From IMG/VR virus record IMGVR_UViG_3300045988_113737: a stretch of 46,747 nt of DNA; one strand, written 5' to 3'. A model generated the notes under the pieces. It was not told where the DNA came from. It did not search any database and saw only the letters and a program-made list of their open reading frames with translations. This stretch comes from a virus. This document shows positions 18,993 to 35,342 of this stretch, one piece after another; the first letter of the stretch is position 1, and each line of letters starts with the position of its first letter. The position numbers and the translations under genes were made by a program.

Positions 18993-18994
18993 GA

Positions 18995-19747: not shown

Positions 19748-19750
19748 CTG

Positions 19751-19885
19751 TTATACCTCCTGAAACTTCTTCAAAAATTTGTGAGAGCTGATATATTCGT
19801 TCATCTTAGCTCTCTGCTTTCCTGCGGCCCTGCGGCGGCTAAAGAAAAGCCGTCTGCGTTCCGCTCTTCCGGGATTTTTCTTCAT
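19751..19885 (-). CDS. Small basic protein (44 aa)
   Basis: ATG overlaps the upstream stop (ATGA). MKKNPGRAERRRLFFSRRRAAGKQRAK... Confidence 0.4.
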   Translation of the reverse strand: MKKNPGRAERRRLFFSRRRAAGKQRAKMNEYISSHKFLKKFQEV

Positions 19886-20157
19886 ATTGAACCCTCCAAT
19901 AATTTCAAAAGATTTCTTTTTGTGACGGCAACCATTGTGTCACCGCTCAACATCTTCCATCGGAACTTCCGATCTTTCGGTACGAGATCAAGGTCTTCTG
20001 CTTGGAAACGGAGATCGAAGTCATGAACCGTATGACCGTCTGCGTGAAAGGAAACAGGGGAGTCCCTATCCCACTTCAAGAGAAGTTTCCACAGGTCAGG
20101 GTACTCTTTTCTAAGAATTCGCAGCTGGTCTATCCCTTGATTGTGACAAAACCAACA

Positions 20158-20166
20158 CCCCCCCCC
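20158..20166. repeat. C9 (coding-strand G9) homopolymer, frame-switch point 2
   Basis: ...TATRGG in one frame continues as CWFCHNQG in the +1 frame exactly at the run. Confidence 0.9.
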
Positions 20167-20374
20167 GTGTTGCCGTGGTATAAATCGGAGATAGTAGTCC
20201 TCGCTCTTCACACCACTTCCGGCAATCGGCCTCTGTCCATCCGATTTCCACTAAGGGCATTTTGAACCCCGGTTTATCATGCCTCTGTATGCGCTCAGGC
20301 TCGTCAGCGGCTATGCCAAGGTACTGCACAATATTTGTTCCGGCTCCTTGTGCAAGGGAGCTGCGTGAAAACCC

Positions 20375-20542
20375 GGCGTTTGAGGTCGCTGGTACACCAC
20401 GGGCCTTTGATGATCGGGAACCCGAGGATAAGACCCGTCTTTGAGTTTCTTGCACCATGCGCTGACCGTAAACGGGAACCCGTTGCAGATTTCGAAGTTT
20501 GAGTCTGCTGTTGCACCATGGAGCGAGGCGGGGTGGGAACCC
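20375..20542 (-). repeat. Three diverged tandem 58-61-nt cassettes, each encoding GFP-x5-WC-x2/3-LK in a different frame
   Basis: Units begin gggttccc at 20542, 20481 and 20423. They translate as GFPPRLAPWCNSRLK, GFPFTVSAWCKKLK and GFPIIKGPWCTSDLK. Confidence 0.85.
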
Positions 20543-20556
20543 GGCAATCGGAGATA

Positions 20557-20565
20557 CCCCCCCCC
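20557..20565. repeat. C9 (coding-strand G9) homopolymer, frame-switch point 1
   Basis: Follows ...DRFGEGG. The three downstream frames each contain one motif cassette. Confidence 0.9.
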
Positions 20566-20889
20566 TTCACCGAAACGATCTAAGGTCTTTTTCTTCCTTA
20601 CCGGGATATGGTAAAACAGTTTCTCATAAGTCAACTTTTCACCGTTCCGAACGGCACATTGATGTTCTACCTCAATCCCATACCGCTCTCGAATGATTTC
20701 ATCGGCTTTTGCTTTGAATTGAACCATTGGAGGCAGATCAGCCGGAATATCATCGGTAGCCCAAACCTCAGCATGGGTAATTCGGTCAAGCGGCCAACCA
20801 AGCTCTTCAATGGCTCCCAAACAAGCCAAACTGTCCTTACCATAGGAGAGCGAAAGAACATACTCGGTGTTAGGTTCTCTTTGCATACC

Positions 20890-22734
20890 CTATCCCTCCA
20901 ATAAGGATAACAGGGTTTTCTTCACCTTGTTCACCTTCCGGGTATTCCTCTTAGGAGGCTTCTGCCCGAGAAAATCACGGACATACCGCTTTGCCAGCCG
21001 GATATACCAATCACGGTCAACTACATCAATGCTTAGGTGATTATCATTGTCCACTACACACCTTGAAGGAAGACCGGCAATCTTGACCGGAGTGCCGGTG
21101 GTGAGGTGCATTTTGTAGAGCGTCCCGAACCGGTGATCTTCGGTAGCATACACACGGTTGACCTTCTGCACAACATTCAATTCTCCGTCAACTTCATGAA
21201 GAGCGTCACCATACTTACTTCCGGCCTTGGCTACCAACTGGAAATCTAAGAGCCGATCACACTCCATAATGGTCTTCTCTACCGGTACACCGTAGGCCAG
21301 ATAATCCTTGACGGCCCTGGCTACCACACAAGCATTGTTGTTGATGTTGAACGCTCCTGCTGGTGCAATGCCCCGAACAAGAACCCCGCCTTTGATTTTC
21401 GGCTCCCCCTCGAAGGGAACCTCTACATAATTGTTCACATCTTTCTGGCAGATCATCTTTATCAGGTCTTCTTCCAACTCGAACCCGGTACGCTGTTCCC
21501 ATTCCTGAGTGATTTCCTGATACCGGGTAACATCGGAGTCATCAAGGCTAACCATGATACCATCAGTGTTAAGCTGGATGATTTTCAGCGTGGGGCATTC
21601 CTGAGTGAGATGGACGGCCATTTCAAGTAGCTGCAACTGGCCTGAGATACATACTGACCGGCCCATGAGAGAGTCATAGAGGTCATTGTACTGATTGAGC
21701 ATAGCCCCGTAGGTGGTGTTCAGAACCAGTTTCAGAGCGTTTGCCGTAGCCTTATCCCCTGACTTCTTCGCCTTGACACGCCGCTCAATGGTGGCGGCAT
21801 ACACATCGGGAGAGGGAATGTTCCGGCTACAATACCCATTCAAGATCATCTGGTGAGGGTAGTAACTGGCAACATCTTTATTCCGAATGGAGCGAGTTTC
21901 CGTGGCTTCTTCCCGGTAACAGGGAATTGCGCCGTGAATACCTCCGTAGGCAATCGTGCAAGGGCAATCTCCCACGGTGATCTCCAACTTTTCCTTGAAC
22001 ACTACCTCATTGGGAATGCTCATGTCTTTCAGCCGGTCAAAGAAGTCAAACACCTTTTGCGGGATATACTGCTTCAACAGAGCCGGTGGGTACTGGTACT
22101 CACGCTCGTCATAGTGGGGCTTCGGTTCTGCGTCAAGGTAAGCTGCGGTCAACTTGGCATTGGTCATATAGAGGGCCTTTGCTGGGTAAATTCCCTTTTC
22201 TTTCCCCAGAGTAAGTTTGCTGGAAAGATAACCCTGCCGCAGATCGTCCAACTGGTCAGTTGCGTCTACATCGTGCTTGCAGTAAAAAATGACTTCATCA
22301 AGTTCCTGCTGAGTGAGAGGCCGGTTGATGTTAAAACTTACCGTTGTTTCTCGAATATCCATCCCCAAGTGCGCTTCAATGGCTTTCAGGGATAGACCCA
22401 TCTGGCAGTCATCCATGAGATCATATTGGTCAAAATAGACCCGGCTCTCACACAGATCAGGGTGTTCCCACCCCTCATGTCCCTGCACGATGATAAAATC
22501 GTTGACTGCTTTGACCTGTTCCGGGGTATAATCACAGAGGACGGCTTTCAAAATGAACTGGTCATAGTGCTTATTATTGAAGCCTCCCAAAAGGGGTTCT
22601 TGCTCCATGAACTGGCGCACAGCCTCATTATCGTTGTGGATGACCGTGTACTCTTTCGTGGTCTTGTGCTTAAAAACAAAGAGCCAATCGAAAGCGAAAA
22701 CCTCACAGTCAAAAATATAGCGATCATCAATCAT
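20890..22734 (-). CDS. Family-B DNA polymerase with 3'-5' exonuclease
   Basis: Exo motifs FDCEVF, NKHYDQFIL, YCKHDVD. Polymerase motifs DVASYYPH (A), KLVLNTTYGAM (B), LNTDGIMV (C). Confidence 0.85.
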   Translation of the reverse strand: MIDDRYIFDCEVFAFDWLFVFKHKTTKEYTVIHNDNEAVRQFMEQEPLLGGFNNKHYDQFILKAVLCDYTPEQVKAVNDFIIVQGHEGWEHPDLCESRVYFDQYDLMDDCQMGLSLKAIEAHLGMDIRETTVSFNINRPLTQQELDEVIFYCKHDVDATDQLDDLRQGYLSSKLTLGKEKGIYPAKALYMTNAKLTAAYLDAEPKPHYDEREYQYPPALLKQYIPQKVFDFFDRLKDMSIPNEVVFKEKLEITVGDCPCTIAYGGIHGAIPCYREEATETRSIRNKDVASYYPHQMILNGYCSRNIPSPDVYAATIERRVKAKKSGDKATANALKLVLNTTYGAMLNQYNDLYDSLMGRSVCISGQLQLLEMAVHLTQECPTLKIIQLNTDGIMVSLDDSDVTRYQEITQEWEQRTGFELEEDLIKMICQKDVNNYVEVPFEGEPKIKGGVLVRGIAPAGAFNINNNACVVARAVKDYLAYGVPVEKTIMECDRLLDFQLVAKAGSKYGDALHEVDGELNVVQKVNRVYATEDHRFGTLYKMHLTTGTPVKIAGLPSRCVVDNDNHLSIDVVDRDWYIRLAKRYVRDFLGQKPPKRNTRKVNKVKKTLLSLLEG

Positions 22735-22755
22735 CTTTCACACAGGCACCTCCTT

Positions 22756-23370
22756 TTACAAATTTCCCCATTGGTCAACCATGGCCTTTGCAATACCGGG
22801 GAAGGTCTTAGACGCTGTTACAGGGTCATGTGCCGTTCCTTTTGACCCTCCGCCTCCACGAGAAAAAGCCCCTGTATTGCTGGGAAGAAATGGAGTGTGT
22901 TCAGTCATGATTTTTGTAGGTTGAAGAGGCGGCAAGCCTTTCAGCCACAAGAGCGTTGCTTTACTGTATGGATGACCATATTCGTAGGGTTGAATGACCT
23001 GTGTAGGGGGGGGAAGTCTTACAACTTTCAATGGCCTTGGGTTCTCAACACAAATTCTGGGACAATCGGCCATTAAAAATCTCATGAAAAACGCTTTCGC
23101 TTTCATAGCGAGGTCATAGCGTTCTTGTGACAACTCTCCCGCCTTGGGGTACATCCATCTGGCTCCTGCCTTGCTCATGTAGGTACAAGGTGGATGGGCG
23201 ATAATCATATCCCACCTGATTTTCAGAATTTCAAGAGCGTCCGCCCGAAGATGATACTCAGGGTGTCCACCACTACACTCTACAAGATCACAACTATAAG
23301 CCTCGTGCCCGGCCTCCCGGAATGCGTTCGCCACGGTCTGGCTCTCTTCACAAGCAACAAGAACTCTCAC
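22756..23370 (-). CDS. Cytosine-C5 methyltransferase-like protein (short form)
   Basis: HPPCTYMS (PPC) and CVENPR (ENV-like) motifs. GTG start overlaps the helicase stop (GTGA). Confidence 0.45.
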   Translation of the reverse strand: MRVLVACEESQTVANAFREAGHEAYSCDLVECSGGHPEYHLRADALEILKIRWDMIIAHPPCTYMSKAGARWMYPKAGELSQERYDLAMKAKAFFMRFLMADCPRICVENPRPLKVVRLPPPTQVIQPYEYGHPYSKATLLWLKGLPPLQPTKIMTEHTPFLPSNTGAFSRGGGGSKGTAHDPVTASKTFPGIAKAMVDQWGNL

Positions 23371-24767
23371 CTTACCGCCCCCTCTAACCAATGACAGCCA
23401 AGTTTGCGGTAAGTGGTACAGCGTTTCTTGAAGCTGCGGACGAGATACTGAATACCGTTGTCCACATAATCATAGACAACAGGTGTCACCTTTCCTTCAA
23501 AGGTACGGGCAACCCGGCCCACACTCTGAGCGATCACGGCATAATCTTTTTGGGGAGTCACTAAATAGAGCCGGTCAAGCCGTGGAATGTCCAGCCCCTC
23601 TTTTGCCAAAGCATAGGTGGCGAAGAGGAAGTGTTTCTTACCGGCTCTCATATCCTCAATGGCTTTTTCTCTTTGAGTTTTACCCTTTTTGGAAGTCATC
23701 TTCCCATCTACCATGACTGACTTATCTCTCAGTTCTTTTGGTAAATGCTTCATGAGATATTCCAAGTGAGAGAGCCTATCGGAGAGAATGAGATTGTAGT
23801 GACTGCCATTAGTCACCAGATCACAGACAATTTGCCCGTTCCGGCGAAAATCCTCAGCCAAATAATTTACCAGTTTCGCATAGATAATCGTGCCGTCAGT
23901 ATCAAGGAACTCTTTACTCAGGCCAATGTTTGTGTACCGGGGAAGAATGCTGACCGTCATGATCTTATCCGCTACGGCTTCGTCCGGCACCTGATAGGCT
24001 ATCTTTCCAAGTAAGGCATAGGTAGCTGCGATCATACCATCTGCCCGGTGAACCGTTGCAGAGAGGCCATATTTATGCCGTGCGGCCAGAGCATTCAGCA
24101 CCTTGGAGAACTGCGTGACTGCGGTAGGTGTACCGGCTACCCGATGGCACTCGTCCACGATGACACAACCCCAAGTGTTCTTATACCGATCAAGGTCGAG
24201 ATTGCACATGGTCTGAACCGTAGCAAAGGTGATACCTCTGCCAATGTGAACCCTTCCCTCGGTGATTGTACCGGTCAAGTCAGGGTTCATATACATCTCA
24301 GCCCGGTTTTTGCTTTGCAGAAGCAAATCTCTCGTGTGGGTCAGCCACAGTGTCTTTTCACCTATCGCACAGGCCAGAGCAATTCCGATCTGGGTTTTTC
24401 CTGAACCCGCCGCACTTTGCAAAATTCCCTTTCCGCTTTCCACCAGGGCGGCTTTCGCCTGTTCCTGATACTCATAGAGGGGAACAACACACTGGTAATC
24501 TACCGGTTCCTGCTTGGCAAATTCCATGGACACATCAATGAACGGGGATAGCCTGAGAACATCATTGAAGCACCCATAAGGGAGAACCAGTGTGTTTGCG
24601 TCCCACTCCATCAGATACAACTTCTGGGGAGTGTTCCCGAGCCAAAGGTTCATTCTGGCCTTTTTGGTGTAGTCCGGGTTTGCCAGTACCAGATTTTTCT
24701 TACACCACGCAATCAGTTCCGGGGAAGGGTCTTCAATGCGAAGCCGGTTTGATACTACCATCCGCAT
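23367..24767 (-). CDS. SF2 DEAD/DEAH-box helicase
   Basis: Walker A AAGSGKTQ, DECH box, QSVGRVAR. Start MRMVV overlaps the resolvase stop. Confidence 0.85.
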   Translation of the reverse strand: MRMVVSNRLRIEDPSPELIAWCKKNLVLANPDYTKKARMNLWLGNTPQKLYLMEWDANTLVLPYGCFNDVLRLSPFIDVSMEFAKQEPVDYQCVVPLYEYQEQAKAALVESGKGILQSAAGSGKTQIGIALACAIGEKTLWLTHTRDLLLQSKNRAEMYMNPDLTGTITEGRVHIGRGITFATVQTMCNLDLDRYKNTWGCVIVDECHRVAGTPTAVTQFSKVLNALAARHKYGLSATVHRADGMIAATYALLGKIAYQVPDEAVADKIMTVSILPRYTNIGLSKEFLDTDGTIIYAKLVNYLAEDFRRNGQIVCDLVTNGSHYNLILSDRLSHLEYLMKHLPKELRDKSVMVDGKMTSKKGKTQREKAIEDMRAGKKHFLFATYALAKEGLDIPRLDRLYLVTPQKDYAVIAQSVGRVARTFEGKVTPVVYDYVDNGIQYLVRSFKKRCTTYRKLGCHWLEGAVR

Positions 24768-25165
24768 TTCAACACCCACGCTTCCAGAGGAAGCCCATAC
24801 TGACGAATATCCGGGAGGTAGATAGATTTCCGGTTCAGCATGAAACTTTCCATATCTGCCAGAGATAGGAACCAGATTTCTTCGTTTGTCAGGAGAAGAG
24901 CGAACCACCCTTCACCGTTCCCAGTCTGCCTCCACAATCTCATAGCCGAATACTGATTTTCTTCAATTCGATCAAGACGGAAAATGTTTTTCTCGCACAC
25001 CTTACAGTCAATGGGATAGGTGTTACCGTGTCGAGCTGCGATCACATCGAAAGGCTGACCCTGCTTGTTCTGAGCGAGGTTGTGCGCCCAGAAGCCAAAA
25101 TCCGAAAGCCTACGGCATAGTGTCTGCTCGAAGGAAGTGCCTACCTTGCGGTTATCATTGGTCAT
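24755..25165 (-). CDS. Hjc-like PD-(D/E)xK Holliday-junction resolvase
   Basis: GTSFEQ..., QPFDVIA, YPIDCKV. Start MTNDN after GGAGAG. Confidence 0.6.
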   Translation of the reverse strand: MTNDNRKVGTSFEQTLCRRLSDFGFWAHNLAQNKQGQPFDVIAARHGNTYPIDCKVCEKNIFRLDRIEENQYSAMRLWRQTGNGEGWFALLLTNEEIWFLSLADMESFMLNRKSIYLPDIRQYGLPLEAWVLKCGW

Positions 25166-25400
25166 GGAAATCACTCTCCATTTCCGCAATGTGTACCGTC
25201 AGGTCGTGAACCTTGGCTTTCAGGTCTGTAATAGACCTTGCCAGATTGTTTTCTCGTTCGGCCTGTTCTTCCCGCAAGGCTCTGAAATACTTTAGAGCGT
25301 CAAAGCCCATATACTTGTCAATCAGGTATTCGAGATCGTCAACAGAGAACAGGGTTTCGTTCTTTCCGTTTATCAGCGTAATAACCCTTGGGTATTGCAT
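25155..25400 (-). CDS. Hypothetical protein (81 aa, coiled-coil C-terminus)
   Basis: Track ORF with AAAGGAGAAG RBS. Confidence 0.6.
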   Translation of the reverse strand: MQYPRVITLINGKNETLFSVDDLEYLIDKYMGFDALKYFRALREEQAERENNLARSITDLKAKVHDLTVHIAEMESDFHDQ

Positions 25401-25453: not shown

Positions 25454-26269
25454 TTAAACGCAGAAGCCGAAGGACACACCATACGAGATGCTGGCGCCGT
25501 TATTGTTGGCGTCACCCGAGGCGTCCACAGGGCAGAAACTGGTGGTGTGGTCGCTACGAGGCGAACGCTCCCACCGCCAATCCCGCTCACCGTTCTGCTT
25601 GCACTTTCCGTATTCGGTATTCTCCTGACGATACCAGTCATACCACTTGCCTTCTCCGCCGATAGAGTAAATCTTCCGGCCAAAAATCTCCTGCTCGGAG
25701 AGGATAAACAGAGGATCAGAGGTCATCCCGATCTTCTGACTACCACCGCCCAGACAGGTTTCCTTCAAGCAAGGTTTGATGACACTGAGTAAATCGTCAG
25801 GAAGCAGTTCGATGATGGAATTGTTCAACATCTTGCGGAGCTGAGAATTCTGCCAACCACCCTTGTTCGTGTATTCCGGGTTCATCTGAAAATCATCATT
25901 GAGGGTTTCCACCGTTTCAAAGCTGATCGGGAGGATATTGCTGTGCTTGTCTCTATCATGATTGAAACCGATGATACGGACATGAATGGTGGTGCCATCT
26001 TTCAGCTGCACCGTCTTGGTATCACCCAGAGAGAAAACCTTATCGGCCATTCCGCTCTTGCCGTACATATCAATCTCGGCCCAAGAGCAATCGTCCAGTT
26101 TCATCTTCGGGAGATCAGGAATACCGTAAATCCGGCCATCGGCGGGAACCTTGCAACAGGGACAAACAGGAGGCTTCTGCATGGAGGCAATGACTTCTTT
26201 CTGGTAATTGATCGTCCGCTCCATGCGGTCAAACTCAGCTGCAAGCTGGGAAAATACATTCTTATTCAT
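25454..26269 (-). CDS. DGR target protein 2 (remote variable protein)
   Basis: C-terminus WRWERSPRSDHTTSFCPVDASGDANNNGASISYGVSFGFCV is encoded by VR2. Body is homologous to 35993..37138. Confidence 0.85.
   Translation of the reverse strand: MNKNVFSQLAAEFDRMERTINYQKEVIASMQKPPVCPCCKVPADGRIYGIPDLPKMKLDDCSWAEIDMYGKSGMADKVFSLGDTKTVQLKDGTTIHVRIIGFNHDRDKHSNILPISFETVETLNDDFQMNPEYTNKGGWQNSQLRKMLNNSIIELLPDDLLSVIKPCLKETCLGGGSQKIGMTSDPLFILSEQEIFGRKIYSIGGEGKWYDWYRQENTEYGKCKQNGERDWRWERSPRSDHTTSFCPVDASGDANNNGASISYGVSFGFCV
25460..25575 (-). repeat. DGR variable repeat VR2
   Basis: Gap-free alignment to TR 35343..35458. 16 of 17 mismatches are at TR plus-strand T (coding-strand A). Confidence 0.85.
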
Positions 26270-26309: not shown

Positions 26310-26546
26310 TCAAATTGAGCATTTACGCTTGCCGCTTTTCGGTCTGCTACACCGGGAGCGGCTTTTCTTTTTCTGCGTGGGGTAAAAGGCTCCGGCCAGT
26401 TTGCAGAACACATAGAAACAGGCCAAGGCTAAGATCATGTGGATTGTCCCGGTGCCGAGGGATAACATATCCTGTTCCACAGCTCCGATTGTTCCATAGA
26501 GCCAGAAGAACGAGGCTACGGCTAAAAACCCAGATACTTTTCTCAT
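26310..26546 (-). CDS. Small membrane protein (2 TM, basic tail)
   Basis: Two hydrophobic segments followed by KKKSRSRCSRPKSGKRK. ATGA overlap with the upstream gene. Confidence 0.55.
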   Translation of the reverse strand: MRKVSGFLAVASFFWLYGTIGAVEQDMLSLGTGTIHMILALACFYVFCKLAGAFYPTQKKKSRSRCSRPKSGKRKCSI

Positions 26547-26998
26547 GCAATCACCTCGTCCATGGCTCGGAACACATCAGACAGTTCTTCCAAACTTTCA
26601 TACTTCGCTTTGAATACCTGCATATCCGCTTTGGCTTTCAGGAGCAAATTCGTTCTAAGTTCGTTATCCGACAGAACCCTTGAAATGCTTAGATAAGACC
26701 GGGTATCATTTACTTTGGTGTTCACAAAGGCTCTTACGGGAACGGACTCTTTTGAGGGTCTTTCCTCCACCACGGTTATCTGCCGGATGAAATATGCGGC
26801 CTGATCTTCTCGGTACTTTTCAGCTGCAACATTGTCATCCCATTCAAAGTCATCATGGAGGGGAGAACCAATCTCTCTGTTTGCGTCAAGCAGATTTTTG
26901 GGTGTAAGACCGCCTGTTTCTTCAAGCCGCCTCATTTGCTCTCCCGCCGCTTGTGGGTCTGCCTTAACACAAGCAAGCGGTTTCCATTGAAAAACCAT
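26543..26998 (-). CDS. Hypothetical early protein (151 aa)
   Basis: AAAGGAGGAAAA RBS. PLHDDFEWDDNVAAEKYREDQAAYFIRQI. Confidence 0.6.
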   Translation of the reverse strand: MVFQWKPLACVKADPQAAGEQMRRLEETGGLTPKNLLDANREIGSPLHDDFEWDDNVAAEKYREDQAAYFIRQITVVEERPSKESVPVRAFVNTKVNDTRSYLSISRVLSDNELRTNLLLKAKADMQVFKAKYESLEELSDVFRAMDEVIA

Positions 26999-27039
26999 AA
27001 TTTTCCTCCTTTCTTCAAACTACCGTACCTTGGCCCACG

Positions 27040-27440
27040 GCACCCCGAGATAACACACCTGAACCAACCCCGCCTGCCGTGCCTAACACCACCATGCCTC
27101 ACTTCACCTTGCCATAAGCGAACTCACCAAGCCTGCCTTACCGAAACTTACCTGAATTTACCTAAACCATCCTCGCCTCTCCAAACCTCACCTTGCCTGC
27201 CTTGAAAGAACCTTGCCTCAACTGACCAAACCTTACCTTGCGATAACAAACCGAACCATGCCTGCCATGCCAGATCACGCCACGCCATACCGAACCTTAC
27301 CCTTACACGCCGTACCTGCCATAACTGAACACTCCATGCCTTGGCTCTCCACATTAGACCTTACCGGAACCCGCCTAACCTGCCGAGCCGTAACCAGACA
27401 AGCCTAAACTAAACGCACCTGAACTAAACACACCTGCCAT
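27040..27440 (-). repeat. Strand-skewed spacer without credible coding potential, carrying 7 periodic CCTGCC (minus-strand GGCAGG) motifs
   Basis: Plus strand is C/A-rich and G-poor. CCTGCC at 27073, 27132, 27196, 27261, 27315, 27379 and 27433. Dense GG-N3-GG on the sense strand. Confidence 0.8.
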
Positions 27441-27442
27441 AT

Positions 27443-28078
27443 TCAGCACACATGGTATCTACCGTAATTTCCGCCCTTTTCCGGCCTCCACTCACCGATA
27501 CCAACGGCAAAACCGCCAAGATTGAAGAGGTTACACAGCTGAGCCAGAGAAAGAACACCGGCGTTGTATTTGACAGTGAAGGTGATAGACCAATCAGAGA
27601 ACTCAGCACGGTAGCGAATATCAGCCGTCCCCATGCCGACACGAACCATGTCCTCTCGAATTTGAGGAACCCCGTTGATCTCCACATACTCTTCGTCAAT
27701 GTGAAAAGCTCCGTTCATCTCGACTTTGTTCTTAGTGACACCGGCTCTGAAACCAGCGGACACAGCAGAAGCCTTTACGCCGACAGCGGGGAAGCCAAAT
27801 TTCGCTCCATTTTCAAGAGCCTTTTGAAATTCCTCCGGGGTATTGTGTTCGGGCTTGCCGGAAAGGAAGTAGATAGTATCGACAAAATCAGAGAAGGGGT
27901 CTTTTGCGTCATGCCCCTTAGTGGTAGCAACCTTCATCTGCTTATCCAACATCATCTTCTTAGCCTTTTCGCTCCACTTATGGACGATCAGGGGACTGTC
28001 ACCCTTGATGGTGATGGGGGCCGTGCGAATGTCGATTGCCGGGATGGTGATGACTTCGGTTTCCTTTTTAACTGCCAT
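27443..28078 (-). CDS. Conserved early phage protein, function unknown
   Basis: Start at MAVKKE after GGAGGA. ...GIGEWRPEKGGNYGRYHVC C-terminus. Confidence 0.6.
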   Translation of the reverse strand: MAVKKETEVITIPAIDIRTAPITIKGDSPLIVHKWSEKAKKMMLDKQMKVATTKGHDAKDPFSDFVDTIYFLSGKPEHNTPEEFQKALENGAKFGFPAVGVKASAVSAGFRAGVTKNKVEMNGAFHIDEEYVEINGVPQIREDMVRVGMGTADIRYRAEFSDWSITFTVKYNAGVLSLAQLCNLFNLGGFAVGIGEWRPEKGGNYGRYHVC

Positions 28079-28253
28079 TACTAATTCCTCCATTTATAGG
28101 TTTCCATTGATACTTCTTGCCATATTTTTGTTCATACCAACTCTCAAATGCTTTCCGGTGTTCTTCATCGGTGAAATACTCCCGGACTCTCTGAACCAGC
28201 AACAGGCTTGCGGCTCTGGCCTGAGCTTGCACCTCTGGTACAAACACACTCAT
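28068..28253 (-). CDS. Hypothetical protein (61 aa)
   Basis: ATGA overlap with the upstream gene. Confidence 0.5.
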   Translation of the reverse strand: MSVFVPEVQAQARAASLLLVQRVREYFTDEEHRKAFESWYEQKYGKKYQWKPINGGISNGS

Positions 28254-28549
28254 GGCTCCTTACACGGCCCCATGCGCTCCTGATACTCTCGCAGAATGGA
28301 AAGGGAACGGCGAAGAATTTCATCCGCCTTACTACCAGTTCGGACACCGGCCAGTGTTGCCGACATTTCAAACTTATCGGTCATCAGTCCTTCATCGGAC
28401 AACTGCCGAATGAGCCATGTGTAGGTCAGACTGAAACCTTCCACGAGGGTTCTGATCTGCTCTGCAATGCTGGTGCGCTCAGGTTCACTCAGCCGTACCA
28501 CAAGTGCGTCAGATGTCCAATAGGGGCGAGGGGTGGGGGTTGCTCCCAT
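28250..28549 (-). CDS. First early gene; possible RHH/Cro-like regulator
   Basis: Start at MGATPT after AAGGGAGG. VVRLSEPERTSIAEQIRTLVEG is RHH-like. Divergent from the repressor gene. Confidence 0.4.
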   Translation of the reverse strand: MGATPTPRPYWTSDALVVRLSEPERTSIAEQIRTLVEGFSLTYTWLIRQLSDEGLMTDKFEMSATLAGVRTGSKADEILRRSLSILREYQERMGPCKEP

Positions 28550-28597
28550 CGTGTTACCTCCCTTCATTCGATTTACAACAAAAGTTATAAATTATCC

Positions 28598-28753: not shown

Positions 28754-28782
28754 AGTATAATCCCTATATGGTGAATTGTCAA
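28754..28782 (-). promoter_or_regulatory. Early lytic promoter (consensus -35)
   Basis: Minus strand TTGACA-17 nt-TATACT. Its -10 overlaps a plus-strand TATAAT (28756..28761). Flanked by TCCCTAT/ATAGGGA dyads. Confidence 0.6.
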
Positions 28783-28827
28783 TAGGGAAATTAGGGATTT
28801 TTCAAAAAATTATTTGAGGTGCATACT

Positions 28828-29205
28828 ATGACTTTTATTGAGAGGCTTGAACAATTAAGACAAGAGAAAGGTATTACCCGGAAAAAATTGCTGGAAGACT
28901 GTAAATTAGGGAAAAATCAATTCACTTACTGGGAGAAAAATAATGCCATTCCGACACCATCTGTATTGTTTGTTTTGGCCCGTTACCTCAAAGTTACGCC
29001 CGAGTATTTATTGGGAGAGAGTGACGATAAAGAAAAAGAAACAAGTGATATAGAGGCATTGCCTGATCTTGAACAAACTCTTTTGTTTTGCTTTGAAAAT
29101 TGTGACGCAATGGGTCAAATGCGTATTATTCAACTTGCCATGAACGAACACGATAGAACGCAAAAAGAAAAAACAGGCTCTACGGGAGAGTCTGTTATCG
29201 GCTAA
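28828..29205 (+). CDS. cI-like XRE-family repressor
   Basis: HTH ITRKKLLEDCKLGKNQFTYWEKNN. GAGGTG RBS. Divergent from the early operon, upstream of the integrase. Confidence 0.75.
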   Translation: MTFIERLEQLRQEKGITRKKLLEDCKLGKNQFTYWEKNNAIPTPSVLFVLARYLKVTPEYLLGESDDKEKETSDIEALPDLEQTLLFCFENCDAMGQMRIIQLAMNEHDRTQKEKTGSTGESVIG

Positions 29206-29262
29206 GGTCATAGAATTAGACAAATGGCGTAAAACACTGTAAAGAACTTGTGGGAGGCAATT

Positions 29263-29418
29263 ATGGAAAAGAAAGAGATTTCTGAATTATTTGACCGATT
29301 TACCAATGAACCGGACAAAGAAAAGCGTCATGCCATGATCGACAATCTTACAGAGGAACAGGCAAAACTTATCCTGAAATCTATTGCCGATTTCAAATAT
29401 AGAACCTCCCCGTTTTAA
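29263..29418 (+). CDS. Small hypothetical protein (51 aa)
   Basis: GGGAGG RBS. MEKKEISELFDRFTNEPDKEKRHAMIDNLTEEQAKLILKSIADFKYRTSPF. Confidence 0.5.
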   Translation: MEKKEISELFDRFTNEPDKEKRHAMIDNLTEEQAKLILKSIADFKYRTSPF

Positions 29419-29430
29419 GAGGTGTGCTGT

Positions 29431-31086
29431 ATGAAGAAGTTCAAATTCCCCATCGACCTGTCCATGCTGACAGAGGAAGAGATCAACCAATTCCGGGAAG
29501 ACCCCTCCACTCTGTTTCAAGGCGAGATTGATGTATGTCTTTACCTCCGGTTTAGTTCAGAACGGCAAAAGGAACAGTCTATTGAAGGACAGCTACGGGA
29601 CTGTATAGCCCATTGCAAACGGAAGAGTTACCGAATTGTAGCCATCTTCGTTGACCGTGCTACCACGGCCCGAAAAGATGTAGAGAAACGAGTCCACTTC
29701 CAAGAGATGATTACGGCCAGCGTACACCAGACATGGAAACTGGTCATCGTGTGGAAACTTGACCGCTTTGCCCGGAACCGGGAAGATAGTGCCGTCTTCA
29801 AAATGAGGCTCAGGAAGAACGGTGTCAAGGTTGAATCCGCCACCGAAGGTATTTCCAAAAACCCGGAAGGTATCATCTTGGAAGCCGTCTTGGAGGGTAT
29901 TGCTGAATACTACTCCGCTGACCTCTCCCAGAAGATCACCCGAGGCATGAGAGAGTCCGCTTTGAAGTGTCACAGCATAGGAGGCCATGTTCCCCTCGGC
30001 TACAAGATTGAAGATCACAGACTGGTCATCAATCCCAATACCGCTCACATTGTCCAGGAGGCTTTTGAACTCTATGCCAATGGAGAAACCGTGGCCGATA
30101 TTTGCCGTATGTTCAACACAAAAGGCTACCGGACAGCCAAGGGAGCCGAATTCAACCGGAACAGTTTCAAATCCATGTTCCGAAACAAACGGTATATCGG
30201 GGTCTATACCTACAAAGAGATCGAGAAGGAAGGTGGTGTTCCAGCGATCATCGACAAGGAACTATTTGAAACCGTCCAAAGACGGCTCTCAGCCAATGCA
30301 GAAGCCCCGGCAAGGGGCAAGGCTAAGGTAGATTACCTCTTGGCCGGAAAACTGTTCTGCGGCCATTGTGGAGGCTCTATGAACGGGGAAAGCGGCACCA
30401 GTAAGACCGGAGCCATTCACCATTATTACTCTTGTTATTCAAGAAAGCGACACCACTCTTGCGATAAGAAGCCTCTCAGGAAAGAGTGGATTGAACAGAT
30501 CGTGGCTCAGGACGCTATGGAGCTGCTGACCGATGACGCTATTCAGGAAATGGCTGATATGGCAATCTCCCAAACAGAAAAGGACTTGCGGGAAAATACT
30601 CGCATTCCTGAACTGTCCGAAAGGATGAAGGAAACTGAGAGCGGTATCGCCAATATCACAAAGGCCGTGGAGAAAGGCATTGCCTCTGACGCTCTCATGA
30701 GCCGTCTGGTGGAACTGGAAAAGGAAAAGAAAAATCTTCTCCGGTTGATAGCCGAAGAAGAAAAGTATGTCTGTAAAATCGACAGAGATCAGATTGTCTA
30801 TTGGCTTACCAAATTCAAGAACGGCAACATTGAAGACGAGAACTTCAAGAGGATTATCATTGATCTCATGGTAAACTCAGTCACAGTATGGGACGAGCCT
30901 GACGACTTCCGTATTACCACCGCATATAATCTAACCTCCTGCAAAAACAAGACTTTCCGAATACCCTCTTCCTCTGATAAGGGGTTCGGATTTGAGGGGT
31001 TAGAGTCCACCATTGAACGCAAATCCGAACCCTGCTTTGTGTGGGGGACGATTTTCGTTCAAACAAAAAGACACTCCTTGCCGTAA
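29431..31086 (+). CDS. Large serine recombinase (integrase)
   Basis: Catalytic LYLRFSSERQ, resolvase plus recombinase domains, zinc ribbon CGHCGG...CYSRKRHHSC, coiled-coil C-terminus. Confidence 0.9.
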   Translation: MKKFKFPIDLSMLTEEEINQFREDPSTLFQGEIDVCLYLRFSSERQKEQSIEGQLRDCIAHCKRKSYRIVAIFVDRATTARKDVEKRVHFQEMITASVHQTWKLVIVWKLDRFARNREDSAVFKMRLRKNGVKVESATEGISKNPEGIILEAVLEGIAEYYSADLSQKITRGMRESALKCHSIGGHVPLGYKIEDHRLVINPNTAHIVQEAFELYANGETVADICRMFNTKGYRTAKGAEFNRNSFKSMFRNKRYIGVYTYKEIEKEGGVPAIIDKELFETVQRRLSANAEAPARGKAKVDYLLAGKLFCGHCGGSMNGESGTSKTGAIHHYYSCYSRKRHHSCDKKPLRKEWIEQIVAQDAMELLTDDAIQEMADMAISQTEKDLRENTRIPELSERMKETESGIANITKAVEKGIASDALMSRLVELEKEKKNLLRLIAEEEKYVCKIDRDQIVYWLTKFKNGNIEDENFKRIIIDLMVNSVTVWDEPDDFRITTAYNLTSCKNKTFRIPSSSDKGFGFEGLESTIERKSEPCFVWGTIFVQTKRHSLP

Positions 31087-33636: not shown

Positions 33637-33935
33637 AGAGATAACCCCCTCTCGATTGCCGCCGCAATAGCGTCCACATCGGCCTGTTCTGCCTTGCCTT
33701 TAAGAATGGCCTCTTGCTCCTTCTGGTAGGCAACCTCGCTGATCGTGGTCACGCTCACGGTTTCTTTTCCTTCCAGTTCACTCCTACCCTCAATGTGGTA
33801 CACAGACCCCTCGATCACAATGCCGTGTGCCTGTTCCTCTGTGCATAGGCCGTAGCACCCGTTGTTCTGCATTTTGACCCACACAGGGGTTGTCACCGTT
33901 GCCAGAGGTGTTCCATCTTTGAGAATTCGATACAT
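33633..33935 (-). CDS. Hypothetical protein (100 aa)
   Basis: Track ORF. Overlaps the low-complexity 3' tail of the RT ORF. Confidence 0.5.
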   Translation of the reverse strand: MYRILKDGTPLATVTTPVWVKMQNNGCYGLCTEEQAHGIVIEGSVYHIEGRSELEGKETVSVTTISEVAYQKEQEAILKGKAEQADVDAIAAAIERGLSL

Positions 33936-35079
33936 TTCTTTCCCAGCCTTTCTTGTTCGGATAGAAGCCGAACATGAATTTGAAATACTGATTGGTGTTC
34001 TCTCGCACCTTAAAACTGTTTCCTCGCTTCATGTGCCCGTGATAACTCTCTACGGAACTCCGAATGTCCGCAACCGTCATCTCACCTCTTTCCCACTTTC
34101 CATGAAAGGTTCGCAGCTTACGCCGAATGATCTTGGTAGAGTCAGGGTTCATCTTCAAAATGACCTTGCCGCTCGAGGTGAGAATGAATTTGGTCTTCAA
34201 CCACCGGTAGAAATCAGCCAGCGGAATAACCCGAGTTTTCTTCCAATTTAGCCGCAGACCTAACTTCCGGGTCATCTCTTCCAGCCCAAACATTCCTTCG
34301 GTTCTGAGAAAATCAATGTCCTCATGAATGGCATATCCATCGTCCATATACCGGGCGTAGCCTTTAATACGAAGTTTTTCCTTGAAATAGTGGTCAATCG
34401 GACTTGGAAGAAGCAGGGCATTTGTCTGAGAGATTTGACTTCCAAGCCCTAAGCCCACTGGCCCGAAATCCGCAATGAAGCTGTCATGCAGGGAGCGTAC
34501 ACGGTCATCATGGAGCCGCCGCTTTGCTTCCGCAGCTAAGGGGTCATGTGGTGCTTCATCGAAATAACTCTTGAAGTCAAAAATCAGAATGCCACCGGCC
34601 AGACCATGTTTCCGATAGTGCTTCTGCAAGTGGCAGATCATACGCCGCAGGGCGAAGTCCATACCACGGTGTTTCAAACTGGCCGAGTTGTCATAGATGA
34701 AAGAAGATGAATAAATCGGAACAATGCAGTAATCGCACAGGCACTTTTGCACGGCCCGTTCTGTGATATGGACAGAGCGGATATACCGTTTCTTACCACG
34801 CTCCATGATGGTGAACTCATGGAAGCCACGGTGGTAGAAATTACCCTCGTTCAGCGATCTCGCTGTCAGGGCAATGTTCGGGATGATATTGCCGATATAG
34901 CGTTGTGTAGAAGATTTCCAATAAACACCTTTACAGCACTTCTTTCCCGAAAGATATAGGTGTCGAAAAGAAAAGACCTCTTCAAAATCCCCACAGGCCA
35001 TACTTCGCTTTCTGCGAGCCTCTTCCCGTTTGGCCTTTCTTCTTTGATAACGGATTTCTCTTCTCTCCGCACTGGTCAT
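33790..35079 (-). CDS. DGR reverse transcriptase
   Basis: LGSQISQ (LGxxxSQ) and YMDD motifs. Start MTSAERRE after GGAGGG. Immediately downstream of TR. Confidence 0.9.
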   Translation of the reverse strand: MTSAERREIRYQRRKAKREEARRKRSMACGDFEEVFSFRHLYLSGKKCCKGVYWKSSTQRYIGNIIPNIALTARSLNEGNFYHRGFHEFTIMERGKKRYIRSVHITERAVQKCLCDYCIVPIYSSSFIYDNSASLKHRGMDFALRRMICHLQKHYRKHGLAGGILIFDFKSYFDEAPHDPLAAEAKRRLHDDRVRSLHDSFIADFGPVGLGLGSQISQTNALLLPSPIDHYFKEKLRIKGYARYMDDGYAIHEDIDFLRTEGMFGLEEMTRKLGLRLNWKKTRVIPLADFYRWLKTKFILTSSGKVILKMNPDSTKIIRRKLRTFHGKWERGEMTVADIRSSVESYHGHMKRGNSFKVRENTNQYFKFMFGFYPNKKGWERNVSNSQRWNTSGNGDNPCVGQNAEQRVLRPMHRGTGTRHCDRGVCVPH

Positions 35080-35342
35080 GAAAAAGATTTCCCTCCGTAC
35101 AGTATGATTGTGGGGTACGGGTTCTAACTGCGTAGTAATACCAGCCATGAAATGAGCTACCGTACAATCACTCACCATGCAAGAAGCGTCCGGCTGATTA
35201 CATCGGAGTGCCCCTTTCGGGGAGGGCGCATTTCAAACGATGTGCCCGGAAGTTTTAGCCAATAGGCAGGGTACAAGTCCTCCCTCTGCAAAAGGTACTG
35301 ATTTCACCCAATGGGGTTACTACGACTGACCTATACGAAGTT

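What the first reader, a model, noticed from the sequence alone, without database searches (positions are those of the whole stretch)
27040..27440. ~400-nt strongly strand-skewed spacer in the early operon, without credible coding potential, with seven periodic GGCAGG motifs
Seen in sequence.
- Between two early genes lies about 440 nt with no credible ORF.
- The plus strand is C/A-rich and G-poor, so the transcribed-sense (minus) strand is G/T-rich and C-poor.
- CCTGCC occurs seven times on the same strand, at 27073, 27132, 27196, 27261, 27315, 27379 and 27433. Spacings are 54-65 nt.
- The sense strand is packed with GG-N3-GG runs (for example ggtgaggtttggagaggcgagg) and AAGGT/GAGGT motifs.
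- A cacctgaac(c/t)aa 12-mer brackets the region (27055 and 27416).
Inference, several options:
- a replication origin using an R-loop or G-quadruplex-prone non-template strand;
- an iteron-like array for a phage DNA-binding protein;
- a cluster of oriented Chi-like sequences protecting DNA from AddAB/RecBCD;
- a protein- or ribosome-sponging non-coding RNA.
None of these matches a feature class I recognise.
Basis: partly seen in the sequence, partly recalled or inferred. Interest (0 to 1): 0.65.

Follow-up and report, generated by a model that had tools for sequence, protein, structure and literature searches.

The report
Phage VIPR guide-RNA array
The odd G/T-rich "spacer" is an array of seven guide RNAs built from 5-base GGYNN repeats, belonging to a recently described phage RNA-guided DNA-silencing system (VIPR), and one guide matches the DNA polymerase gene of more than 120 rival phages.

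Summary
The 444-nt gap has the most extreme GC skew in the window and carries seven same-strand CCTGCC motifs, against 1.1 expected.

The sense (minus) strand is a strict 5-nt repeat, GGYNN. GGCAGG marks a 4-nt step every 10-12 pentamers.

This is a vrRNA array of a VIPR system (Viral Interference Programmable Repeat; two 2026 bioRxiv preprints).
- **Vipr:** the upstream 216-aa gene is a Cas7-like RAMP. It matches the solved SUSP1 Vipr protein and keeps its GGY-contacting residues.
- **Accessory gene:** the downstream 151-aa gene accompanies vipr in 124 of 132 related loci.
- **Array conservation:** 129 of 132 loci carry the same period-5 array, and GGCAG-punctuated intervals fit 1-nt-overlapping ("staggered") vrRNAs.
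- **Targeting rule:** the published 1-nt-skip rule holds. Clade guides give 777 gapped matches to rival phage loci, against 1-3 for other skips.
- **Target:** vrRNA2 matches 22 of 24 positions, in frame, in an SPO2-type family A DNA polymerase gene of at least 120 viral contigs.

Targets of the other six guides were not found. This is a new member of a known, very recent kind.

The parts
28754..28782 (-). Promoter-like site (TTGACA-17-TATACT, 11 of 12) of the leftward early operon, divergent from the HTH repressor gene at 28819..29205(+). It is the likely source of the transcript that carries vipr, the array and vap.
   Evidence: consensus scan only; repressor identified. Transcription from here is inferred.
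27443..28093 (-). vipr gene, 216 aa. The true start may be the second ATG at 28078, because relatives are 210-213 aa. It encodes a small Cas7-like RAMP protein predicted to bind one GGYNN repeat per protomer.
   Evidence: The family profile hits PDB 36pp_D 'SUSP1 Vipr protein' at E=7.8e-6, with H38, R162, E201, W202 and R203 aligned to SUSP1 H17, R138, D177, W178 and R179. The AF2 model has pLDDT 73. Foldseek PDB top hits are all Cas7/Csm3/Cmr4 RAMPs. BFVD hits include a 'Cas system-associated RAMP' protein. PHROG phrog_4652 is of unknown function; there is no Pfam or PADLOC hit.
27434..27438 (-). Leading GGCAG pentamer, 4 nt after the vipr stop codon. Its last G is the first G of vrRNA1.
27020..27438 (-). 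The whole vrRNA array: 83 GGYNN pentamers in seven head-to-tail units, each overlapping the next by 1 nt at GGCA|G.
   Evidence: Pentamer logo: G1 0.89, G2 0.70 (T 0.25), Y3 0.94, N4 and N5 about 0.1 bit each. Periodicity; parse. The fold is no more stable than shuffles (z = -0.32). No Rfam match.
27380..27434 (-). vrRNA1, 11 pentamers, many of them degenerate GTYNN. NN string: GT TA CA GC TA TA TT TG AC TC (AG).
   Evidence: No target found. The seed used included the last variable pentamer, so this negative is weak.
27316..27380 (-). vrRNA2, 13 pentamers. NN string: TA GG CC AA CT GT GA AA AT GT CA AT (AG). Predicted guide against the family A DNA polymerase gene of rival phages, at the peptide YGPKLVENIVQ.
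   Evidence: At least 120 IMG/VR contigs match. NN1-11 match 22 of 22 in about 95 of 120 sites. All sites are in frame with the skip base at the wobble position.
27262..27316 (-). vrRNA3, 11 pentamers. NN string: AC GT AG AA TC AT GT GT CT AT (AG).
   Evidence: IMG/VR and metagenome scans gave only chance-level, out-of-frame hits.
27197..27262 (-). vrRNA4, 12 pentamers plus a 1-nt insertion before the terminal GGCAG.
   Evidence: No target found.
27133..27197 (-). vrRNA5, 13 pentamers. NN string: AA GA TT GA GA TG TA AA CA AA TC AA (AG).
   Evidence: IMG/VR hits did not extend beyond chance.
27074..27133 (-). vrRNA6, 12 pentamers.
   Evidence: Scans found nothing convincing; the seeds included the last variable pentamer.
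27020..27074 (-). vrRNA7, 11 pentamers. It ends GGTAG instead of GGCAG, 9 nt before the AGGAGG ribosome-binding site (27005..27010) of vap.
   Evidence: Scan gave no hit; the seed included the last variable pentamer.
26543..26998 (-). Candidate vap (vipr-accessory protein), 151 aa, PHROG phrog_15946. It is the conserved partner of vipr; its function is unknown.
   Evidence: tblastn finds it downstream of vipr on the same strand in 124 of 132 loci. The array lies between the two genes or after vap. The AF2 model has pLDDT 92, but no significant PDB fold match (best E 0.45; the weak list is mostly winged-helix domains). No Pfam, PDB-sequence or PADLOC hit.
27633..27655 (-). Site inside this phage's own vipr gene (codons E-D-M-V-R-V-G-M) that is matched 16 of 16 under the 1-nt-skip rule by a vrRNA of another VIPR phage (locus L079). 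This element is therefore itself a predicted target of a rival.

Best explanation
The region is the guide-RNA (vrRNA) array of a prophage-borne VIPR system. The module is vipr (27443..28093), the array (27020..27438) and vap (26543..26998), all on the minus strand inside the early operon.

**Proposed mechanism**
- The array is transcribed with the operon. This is inferred.
- It yields seven vrRNAs of 11-13 GGYNN pentamers each.
- By homology with the solved SUSP1 complex, one Vipr protomer binds each pentamer. It buries GGY and exposes the two variable bases.
- The exposed NN dinucleotides pair with double-stranded DNA that reads NNxNNx..., skipping one base per repeat.
- The resulting helical filament with its R-loop triplex blocks transcription of the target.

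**How this clade differs from the characterised type II systems**
- The vrRNAs have no structured 3' tail.
- Each ends in a constant GGCAG whose last G is the first G of the next vrRNA. GGCAGG is therefore a -1 register slip, which is the 'staggered array' layout of the preprint.
- The last variable pentamer and the terminal GGCAG do not pair with targets.

**Biological role**
The role is interference with competing phages. vrRNA2 is aimed at a conserved motif (YGPKLVENIVQ) of the SPO2-type family A DNA polymerase gene, which this phage itself lacks. Other members of the clade aim at the same replication module and at each other's vipr genes.
For: **1. Protein**
- The family profile hits the solved SUSP1 Vipr protein at E=7.8e-6. 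The G1, G2 and Y3 contact residues are conserved and invariant in the family alignment (residue roles from 10.64898/2026.04.26.720927).
- The predicted fold matches only Cas7-type RAMPs.

**2. RNA**
- The period is 4.93 nt and the logo is GGYNN, with about 0.1 bit at N4 and N5.
- The vrRNAs have 11-13 repeats, within the published 9-16.

**3. Linkage**
- 78 of 80 viral loci carry a same-strand period-5 array next to vipr, and so do 129 of the 132 viral and genome loci taken together.
- The DNA sequence itself is not conserved: blastn finds nothing, and relatives with 88% identical Vipr carry different NN strings.

**4. Punctuation**
- 397 of 558 GGCAG-to-GGCAG distances in related arrays are 4 mod 5, with modes at 44-74 nt.

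**5. Targeting rule**
- Clade guide words of 8 NN against 1.17 Mb of rival loci give 2 hits at skip 0, 777 at skip 1, 3 at skip 2 and 1 at skip 4.
- Against the VIPR loci themselves the counts are 0, 62, 0 and 1.

**6. Boundaries**
- In 26 natural guide-target pairs, matching starts at the first pentamer after GGCA|G: 1.85 of 2, against 0.5 upstream.
- It falls to 0.81 at the last variable pentamer and to 0.54, the chance level, at GGCAG.

**7. vrRNA2 target**
- At least 120 contigs match, where other 18-base patterns gave 0-3 independent hits.
- The 120 sites comprise 103 distinct 36-mers that differ at wobble positions.
- The target gene is DNA_pol_A.

**8. Self-avoidance**
- There is no self-target and no polymerase homologue in the window.
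Against: - Nothing here shows that the RNA is made, processed or bound by the protein, or that the target is repressed. All of that is carried over from the SUSP1 and P. fulva work.
- Similarity to SUSP1 Vipr is local (about 60 residues), and the AF2 model is only moderately confident (pLDDT 73; residues 41-63 are below 50).
- Six of the seven vrRNAs have no identified target.
- Many pentamers are degenerate (GTYNN, AATGT, CTCGG) and vrRNA4 has a 1-nt insertion, so some units may be decaying.
- The preprint did not confirm staggered arrays by sRNA-seq.
- The 120 polymerase hits are homologous genes. The independent statistical weight therefore rests on the 4-of-4 extension beyond the seed, the reading frame and the skip-rule controls.
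Confidence: 0.9

Rival explanations
1. The array is a regulatory protein-binding RNA rather than a set of guides. Vipr, or a TRAP-like ring protein, coats the pentamers in the operon mRNA and so controls translation or stability of the downstream vap gene, acting as an autoregulatory sponge.
For: The array sits inside the operon, directly upstream of the vap ribosome-binding site. No promoter or terminator was found within it. A 5-nt period with runs of 10-12 units resembles the 11 triplet repeats bound by TRAP; this resemblance rests on my own knowledge. Six guides have no known target.
Against: In about half of the related loci the array lies after vap or upstream of vipr, so its position before vap is not conserved. 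A sponge would not need hypervariable NN bases. It would also not show the observed skip-1-specific, in-frame matches to foreign genes. The protein is a RAMP, not a TrpBP fold. This could still be an additional role.
Confidence: 0.05
2. The region is a DNA-level element. It would be a replication origin or R-loop/G-quadruplex-prone zone, or an iteron or Chi-like array read on the DNA.
For: The strand asymmetry is extreme. The region lies in the early/replication part of the prophage, next to helicase, Erf and YqaJ genes.
Against: There is no AT-rich unwinding element and no inverted or long direct repeats. The G runs are only two long. The skew is explained fully by the GGY units. The feature travels with a RAMP RNA-binding protein across phyla, not with replication genes. 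The variable positions encode matches to other phages' genes.
Confidence: 0.02
3. The region is a neutral pentanucleotide microsatellite produced by slippage, or a Rho-loading (rut) site on the antisense C-rich transcript, with no specific function.
For: It is a short-period repeat. The + strand is C-rich and G-poor with CC every 5 nt, which is what Rho prefers; this rests on my own knowledge.
Against: Tandem Repeats Finder does not see a simple repeat, because two of the five positions are near-random while three are fixed. The pattern is kept in 129 of 132 loci from Bacillota to Alphaproteobacteria and Actinomycetota. Slippage would not maintain the GGCAG punctuation at 4 mod 5 or the target complementarity.
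Confidence: 0.02

Closest known systems
VIPR systems, type II (Escherichia phage SUSP1, Pseudomonas fulva prophage); bioRxiv 10.64898/2026.04.26.720920 and 10.64898/2026.04.26.720927
   Same: - A small stand-alone RAMP protein with the same G-loop (G-x-G-[DE]-W-R-P), the beta-1 histidine and the thumb arginine.
- vrRNAs built of GGYNN pentamers, within the 9-16 repeat range.
- A phage or prophage location with one accessory gene.
- The 1-nt-skip target code, with the skipped base at the codon wobble position.
- No self-targets.
- Targets in competing phages and in other VIPR systems.
   Different: - There is no ~structured invariant 3' tail or pseudoknot. The constant part is only GGCAG plus a semi-constant non-pairing pentamer.
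- The vrRNAs abut with a 1-nt overlap instead of being separate ~100-nt transcripts.
- The array lies between vipr and vap.
- Protein similarity to SUSP1 Vipr is detectable only over about 60 residues.
- The vap has no recognisable domain.
- The hosts are gut Oscillospirales-type Bacillota.
'Staggered vrRNA arrays' described in fig. S18 of the same preprint
   Same: [quoted passage not shown] That is exactly the GGCA|G junction found here and in relatives.
   Different: I could not see the figure, the type number or the accession list, so identity with that clade is inferred from the legend only. The preprint states that the hammerhead and single-vrRNA layouts were confirmed by sRNA-seq and does not say so for the staggered layout.
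Class 1 CRISPR-Cas backbone (Cas7/Csm3/Cmr4 filament on crRNA)
   Same: The RAMP fold, one protomer per fixed RNA step, a thumb that flips bases out periodically, and RNA-guided recognition of foreign nucleic acid (preprints).
   Different: - The period is 5 nt with 3 bases buried and 2 read, against a 6-nt period with 5 read.
- The guide information is non-contiguous.
- There is no repeat-spacer array, no Cas1/Cas2, no Cas6, no large or small subunit and no nuclease.
- The system is encoded by the phage.
TRAP (trp RNA-binding attenuation protein) and its 11 (G/U)AG repeats
   Same: A protein oligomer reads a run of about 11 short repeats with a 5-nt period on single-stranded RNA.
   Different: The protein fold is unrelated. 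The conserved trinucleotide is GGY, not NAG. The variable bases carry target information. The function is DNA targeting, not attenuation.

Membership tests
VIPR system | Vipr protein: a small stand-alone RAMP with an RRM core, a glycine-rich loop and a thumb | tested here: met
   The profile hits PDB 36pp_D SUSP1 Vipr at E=7.8e-6. Foldseek PDB top 50 are almost all Cas7/Csm3/Cmr4/Cas7-11 (best E 2e-4, probability 1.0). BFVD hits include a 'Cas system-associated RAMP superfamily protein'.
VIPR system | Residues that hold G1, G2 and Y3 (SUSP1 H17, R138, D177, W178, R179) | tested here: met
   They align to H38, R162, E201 (a D-to-E change), W202 and R203, all invariant in the 23-sequence family alignment.
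VIPR system | vrRNA made of tandem GGYNN (YNNGG) pentamers, at least 4 units and 9-16 per vrRNA | tested here: met
   83 pentamers in 7 units of 11-13. The period is 4.93 nt. The logo is G 0.89, G 0.70, Y 0.94, N, N.
VIPR system | GGY conserved while NN is hypervariable between relatives | tested here: met
   Across 270 distinct clade vrRNAs, N4 and N5 carry 0.08-0.09 bit against 0.7-1.6 bit for positions 1-3. Phages with 88% identical Vipr carry unrelated NN strings.
VIPR system | Minimal locus: vipr plus one accessory gene (vap) plus adjacent non-coding arrays, in a virus or provirus, without cas genes or a CRISPR array | tested here: met
   The 151-aa partner is present in 124 of 132 loci and arrays in 129 of 132. 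The prophage context includes a repressor, a serine recombinase, Erf and YqaJ. No CRISPR repeat was found.
VIPR system | Non-contiguous target code with a 1-nt skip, the skipped base usually at the codon wobble position | tested here: met
   Computational test only. Skip 1 gives 777 and 62 hits, against 0-3 for skips 0, 2 and 4. There are 26 in-frame guide-target pairs. vrRNA2 matches 22 of 24 in at least 120 polymerase genes.
VIPR system | No self-targeting | tested here: met
   The best skip-1 score of any of the seven vrRNAs in the window is at background level (at most 18 of 26, the same as the controls). The window has no polymerase homologue.
VIPR system | Invariant structured 3' tail or pseudoknot capping each vrRNA (a type II feature) | tested here: not met
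   Units abut without any non-repeat spacer. The fold z-score is -0.32. The only constant part is GGCAG. This argues against type II and fits the 'staggered array' layout.
VIPR system | vrRNAs are expressed and processed, co-purify with Vipr, and repress the target | not testable with these tools
   This needs sRNA-seq, pull-down and reporter or plaque assays.
VIPR system | Assignment to one of types I-VII (Vipr phylogeny, vap class, array layout) | not testable with these tools
   The supplementary tables and trees of the preprint are not held.
CRISPR-Cas class 1 | A repeat-spacer array with identical 25-40-nt repeats, together with adaptation and effector cas genes | tested here: not met
   No such repeats. 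There is only one RAMP gene. The neighbouring genes have no Cas domains.
TRAP-type RNA-binding attenuation | A TrpBP-fold ring protein and (G/U)AG triplets with 2-3-nt spacers | tested here: not met
   The adjacent proteins have no TrpBP domain. The conserved trinucleotide is GGY.

The most novel reading that the evidence does not exclude
In this widespread clade the pseudoknot tail of the characterised vrRNAs may be replaced by a minimal 3' end. That end would consist of a non-pairing, AT-biased pentamer, a constant GGCAG and a -1 register slip. The slip itself could be the signal that ends one Vipr filament and starts the next. Guides would then be defined, and perhaps trimmed out of the operon mRNA, by filament boundaries rather than by a dedicated processing structure or ribozyme. 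The co-conserved 151-aa Vap would be a new fold acting with this tail-less complex.
Probability: 0.35. Interest if true: 0.6.

Novelty: new member of a known kind. Interest (0 to 1): 0.45.

Why it matters
VIPR was described only in 2026 preprints and has been characterised in two proteobacterial type II systems. This locus shows the same machinery in a prophage of gut Bacillota. Its closest genome relatives are Ruminococcaceae and Oscillospiraceae.

- A tail-less, 1-nt-overlapping array layout that the preprint did not verify experimentally.
- Natural targets in this clade: the family A DNA polymerase and neighbouring replication genes of rival phages, and rival vipr genes.
- Boundary evidence that pairing starts exactly at the GGCA|G junction and that the last two pentamers do not pair.

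These points give a concrete design rule and a concrete test pair (vrRNA2 against the YGPKLVENIVQ site) for experiments and for engineering minimal guides. The protein family has at least 7961 members in the protein collection, all unnamed. It is absent from Pfam and PADLOC, and Rfam has no model for its arrays. Annotation pipelines therefore currently miss it.

Tried and rejected
**Explanations considered and dropped**
- TRAP-like ring binding, an SD-like ribosome sponge, G-quadruplex formation and a Rho rut site on the antisense strand were all considered after the 5-nt period was found. They were dropped once the Vipr homology and the target matches appeared.
- Coding potential is rejected. 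The period is 5, not 3, and no frame is conserved, because relatives share no sequence.

**Searches that found nothing**
- Rfam, at both gathering and E-value thresholds, has no family here.
- Tandem Repeats Finder sees only fragments.
- blastn against INPHARED phages gives no match.

**Target scans for the other guides**
- vrRNA3: NN1-9 in IMG/VR and NN1-10 in metagenomes gave only out-of-frame or low-complexity chance hits.
- vrRNA5: 11 hits in 3-4 AT-rich groups, with extension no better than chance.
- vrRNA6.
- vrRNA7.
- vrRNA1; its single hit (locus L269) was not inspected.
- vrRNA4.
- vrRNA2 NN3-12 in GTDB genomes gave no hit. That pattern included NN12, which does not pair.
- I learned only afterwards that the last variable pentamer usually does not pair. 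The seeds for vrRNA1, 6 and 7 included it, so those negatives are uninformative.

**Vap**
- Pfam gave only a sub-threshold match (Q4D059-like, E 0.0088). The PDB sequence, PADLOC and Foldseek searches gave nothing significant.
- 'Winged-helix-like' remains only a hint.
Full report
**1. Checking the observation**

The 444 nt between the minus-strand ORFs 27443..28093 and 26543..26998 contain no credible ORF. The plus strand is 39% C and 13% G. GC skew is -0.51, the most extreme value in the 46.7-kb window (mean -0.08, sd 0.10).

The other 14 copies in the window are scattered over both strands. Dinucleotide-preserving shuffles of the 444-nt region itself give a mean of 1.1 copies and never reach 7 in 5000 trials. 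The bracketing 12-mer is present at 27056 and 27416.

**2.

Read on the minus (sense) strand, the region is a strict 5-nt repeat. The Fourier peak of GG positions is at 4.93 nt, with power 2286 against a maximum of 661 in 500 shuffles. No other place in the window shows this signal on either strand.

When the sequence is cut at each GGCAGG, it falls into GGCA followed by 10-12 in-register pentamers. The spacings of 54, 64, 54, 65, 64 and 59 all equal 4+5k, apart from one 1-nt insertion.

The pentamer logo is:

| Position | Main bases | Frequency |
|---|---|---|
| 1 | G | 0.89 |
| 2 | G (T as the alternative) | 0.70 (0.25) |
| 3 | pyrimidine, never G | 0.94 |
| 4 and 5 | any base | about 0.1 bit each |

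The skew, the 'GG-N3-GG' runs and the AAGGT/GAGGT words all follow from GGYNN units.

**3. Conservation**

The upstream 216-aa protein (PHROG phrog_4652, unknown function, no Pfam hit) has at least 7961 unnamed relatives in the protein collection. IMG/VR holds 313 relatives, of which 80 loci were kept.
- In 78 of those 80 viral loci a G-rich, C-poor period-5 array lies on the same strand next to the gene.
- When the 52 loci from GTDB genomes are added, 129 of 132 loci have such an array.
- The hosts span Oscillospiraceae and Ruminococcaceae (the closest relatives), other Clostridia, Alphaproteobacteria, Planctomycetota, Acidobacteriota and Actinomycetota.
- The DNA itself is not conserved: blastn finds nothing.
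- Phages whose protein is 88% identical carry different variable dinucleotides and different numbers of units.

GGCAGG is the commonest hexamer in most related arrays. Of 558 GGCAG-to-GGCAG distances, 397 are 4 mod 5, with modes at 44, 49, 54, 59, 64, 69 and 74 nt.

**4. Identification**

A literature search for pentanucleotide repeats in phage non-coding RNA returned a 2026 bioRxiv preprint (10.64898/2026.04.26.720920). It describes VIPR systems:
- a small phage-encoded RAMP protein, Vipr;
- vrRNAs of 9-16 YNNGG repeats, in which GGY is conserved and NN is hypervariable;
- an accessory gene, vap;
- target recognition in which the NN dinucleotides pair with DNA reading NNx, the '1-nt skip rule';
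- seven types with several array layouts, including 'staggered arrays' whose vrRNAs overlap by 1 nt.

The structural companion paper (10.64898/2026.04.26.720927) shows one protomer per repeat and names the residues that hold G1, G2 and Y3.

A profile of the 216-aa family independently hits PDB chain 36pp_D, 'SUSP1 Vipr protein', at E=7.8e-6. In that alignment SUSP1 H17, R138, D177, W178 and R179 correspond to H38, R162, E201, W202 and R203. All five are invariant in the family alignment.

The AlphaFold model (pLDDT 73) matches only Cas7, Csm3, Cmr4 and Cas7-11 RAMPs in the PDB. In BFVD it matches a 'Cas system-associated RAMP' protein.

**5. The accessory gene**

The downstream 151-aa protein (PHROG phrog_15946) is found downstream of vipr on the same strand in 124 of 132 loci. 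The array lies either between the two genes, as here (57 or more loci), or after vap (49 or more loci).

Its model is confident (pLDDT 92) but has no significant structural or sequence relative. The best Foldseek E-value is 0.45, and the weak hits are mostly winged-helix domains. I treat it as the vap of this clade, function unknown.

**6. Parsing the array**

GGCAGG is read as a terminal GGCAG pentamer whose last G is also the first G of the next unit. This is the 1-nt overlap of the preprint's fig. S18. The array then gives seven vrRNAs:

| vrRNA | Coordinates (minus strand) | Repeats |
|---|---|---|
| 1 | 27434-27380 | 11 |
| 2 | 27380-27316 | 13 |
| 3 | 27316-27262 | 11 |
| 4 | 27262-27197 | 12, plus a 1-nt insertion |
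| 5 | 27197-27133 | 13 |
| 6 | 27133-27074 | 12 |
| 7 | 27074-27020 | 11, ending GGTAG |

A leading GGCAG follows the vipr stop codon by 4 nt. vrRNA7 ends 9 nt before the vap ribosome-binding site.

The RNA is no more structured than shuffles (z = -0.32), so there is no tail or pseudoknot. The only promoter-like site is the early promoter at 28782..28754, and no terminator-like site lies in the array. Co-transcription with the operon and later processing are inferred from this.

**7. Testing the targeting rule in this clade**

I took every in-register run of 8 pentamers from the related arrays, which gave 2324 distinct NN words. I looked these up as gapped words in the local sequences.

| Searched sequences | Skip 0 | Skip 1 | Skip 2 | Skip 4 |
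|---|---|---|---|---|
| 80 VIPR loci plus the window | 0 | 62 | 0 | 1 |
| 120 rival phage loci, 1.17 Mb (see section 8) | 2 | 777 (49 words from at least 14 VIPR loci) | 3 | 1 |

The skip-1 hits in the first set fall inside vipr genes of other phages.
- A vrRNA of locus L079 matches 16 of 16 the codons E-D-M-V-R-V-G-M of 53 vipr genes, including this window's (27633..27655). Its own vipr matches only 12 of 16.
- The hits in the second set are in frame in conserved polymerase motifs (LDQEINDRG, RQKGKIAELALGYG, VPVEKHGINGHL) and in neighbouring replication genes.

Aligning 26 distinct natural guide-target pairs on the GGCAG boundaries gives the mean matched bases per NN, out of 2:

| Position relative to the vrRNA | Mean matched bases |
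|---|---|
| Upstream of the boundary | 0.5 (chance level) |
| First pentamers | 1.85, 1.73, 1.88, 1.92 |
| Last variable pentamer | 0.81 |
| Terminal GGCAG | 0.54 |
| Downstream | about 0.6 |

This validates the boundaries. It also shows that the last two pentamers act as a non-pairing 3' end. The last variable pentamer is also slightly biased towards AT.

**8. Targets of this window's guides**

None of the seven guides matches the window itself above the level of the controls.

Equivalent patterns from the other guides gave 0-3 independent hits.

Properties of the vrRNA2 sites:
- All 120 are in frame in a ~655-aa protein, at the peptide Y-G-P-K-L-V-E-N-I-V-Q.
- NN10 matches in 95 of 120 sites and NN11 in 119 of 120.
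- NN12 never matches, as is usual for the last variable pentamer in this clade.
- The 120 sites comprise 103 distinct 36-mers that differ at the skipped wobble positions.
- Several target contigs come from the same metagenome (3300045988) as the window's identical UViG.

The target protein is a family A DNA polymerase (Pfam DNA_pol_A, E=3.5e-21). Its closest cultured relatives are Brevibacillus phage Emery (64%) and Bacillus phage SPO2 gene L (63.5%). The window encodes no homologue, and the fetched rival segments carry no vipr or vap.

The other six guides have no target in those loci. Their collection scans gave only chance-level hits. The seeds used for vrRNA1, 6 and 7 included the pentamer later found not to pair, so those negatives are weak.

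**9. Mechanism**

*Shown here*
- The sequence anatomy of the array.
- Its linkage to a Vipr homologue and to a conserved partner gene.
- The conserved 1-nt-overlap punctuation.
- Skip-1-specific, in-frame complementarity to genes of other phages.

*Taken from the preprints by homology*
- One Vipr protomer binds each pentamer.
- GGY is sequestered by the beta-sheet histidine, the thumb arginine and the G-loop [DE]-W-R.
- The NN bases are presented for pairing.
- An R-loop triplex forms and transcription is repressed.

*Inferred*
- Transcription from the early promoter.
- Release of seven guides.
- Silencing of rival phage replication genes, to the benefit of this prophage.

**10. Comparison with what is known, and novelty**

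All testable defining features of VIPR are met. The exception is the structured 3' tail of type II, which is absent. The layout matches the 'staggered array' mentioned in the preprint but not experimentally verified there. The locus is not a CRISPR system, because it has no repeat-spacer array and no other cas genes. It is not a TRAP-like system either.

This is therefore a new member of a very recently described kind.

Confidence that the region is a VIPR vrRNA array is about 0.9. Confidence that vrRNA2 targets the polymerase gene is about 0.8.

Noticed in passing
window 33790..35334 (-): There is a strong Rfam match to RT-2 RNA (RF03077; 152 bits, E=3.9e-36) at 35071..35334. It overlaps the 5' end of a 462-aa reverse transcriptase ORF at 33790..35178 (Pfam RVT_1, E=2.9e-8; PADLOC gives only a generic RT and weak Drt3a/Drt9 hits). 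This is a second RNA-plus-protein module in the same prophage. Its type (DGR, retron-like or defence RT) was not determined.
   Followed up: partly
window 27633..27655 (-), inside vipr: This phage's own vipr gene (codons EDMVRVGM) is matched 16 of 16 under the 1-nt-skip rule by a vrRNA of another VIPR phage (locus L079, about position 5081). The same guide matches 53 of the fetched vipr genes but only 12 of 16 in its own. VIPR systems of this clade seem to target each other.
   Followed up: yes
related loci L001-L147, 26 natural guide-target pairs: The last variable pentamer before GGCAG is usually unpaired with the target (0.81 of 2 matched bases) and is biased towards N4=A and N5=T. The terminal GGCAG is at chance level. 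The effective 3' end of these tail-less vrRNAs is therefore two pentamers long.
   Followed up: yes
loci L149-L268 (IMG/VR contigs with the vrRNA2 target): Guides from at least 14 different VIPR loci of the clade converge on this group of phages. They hit several conserved motifs of the SPO2-type DNA polymerase and neighbouring genes, for example the peptides CVFFGTTN, KPQGKPTL and GKSRCGAMGMYP. Those neighbouring genes were not identified.
   Followed up: partly
window 27197..27262 (-) and 27380..27434 (-): vrRNA4 carries a 1-nt insertion just before its terminal GGCAG (GGTTC TTTCA A GGCAG). These may be decaying or recently duplicated units.
   Followed up: no
loci L047, L048, L052, L106, L115, L140, L146, L147: Some related loci carry a second period-5 array upstream of vipr as well as the one downstream. 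One (L140) has only an upstream array, 1 kb long with 26 GGCAG. In Alphaproteobacteria the array typically follows vap rather than preceding it.
   Followed up: partly
window 28819..31086 (+) and 17952..25189 (-): The lysogeny and replication context is as follows. An HTH repressor (28819..29205) and a large serine recombinase (29422..31086) face the early operon. That operon also encodes a DEAD/ResIII helicase (23367..24908), a RecU/Hjc-like resolvase (24755..25189), Erf (18995..19747) and a YqaJ exonuclease (17952..18992). The 614-aa ORF at 20890..22734 has no Pfam hit.
   Followed up: partly
window 25454..26269 (-): A 271-aa DUF6273 protein lies two genes downstream of vap. It is present in only 2 of the 132 related loci, so it is not part of the VIPR module.
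   Followed up: partly
window 28068..28567 (-): Two small ORFs of 105 and 61 aa lie between the early promoter and vipr. They occur only in the 7 closest loci and have no family match. The 61-aa ORF overlaps the annotated vipr start, which suggests that vipr really starts at the second ATG (28078).
   Followed up: no
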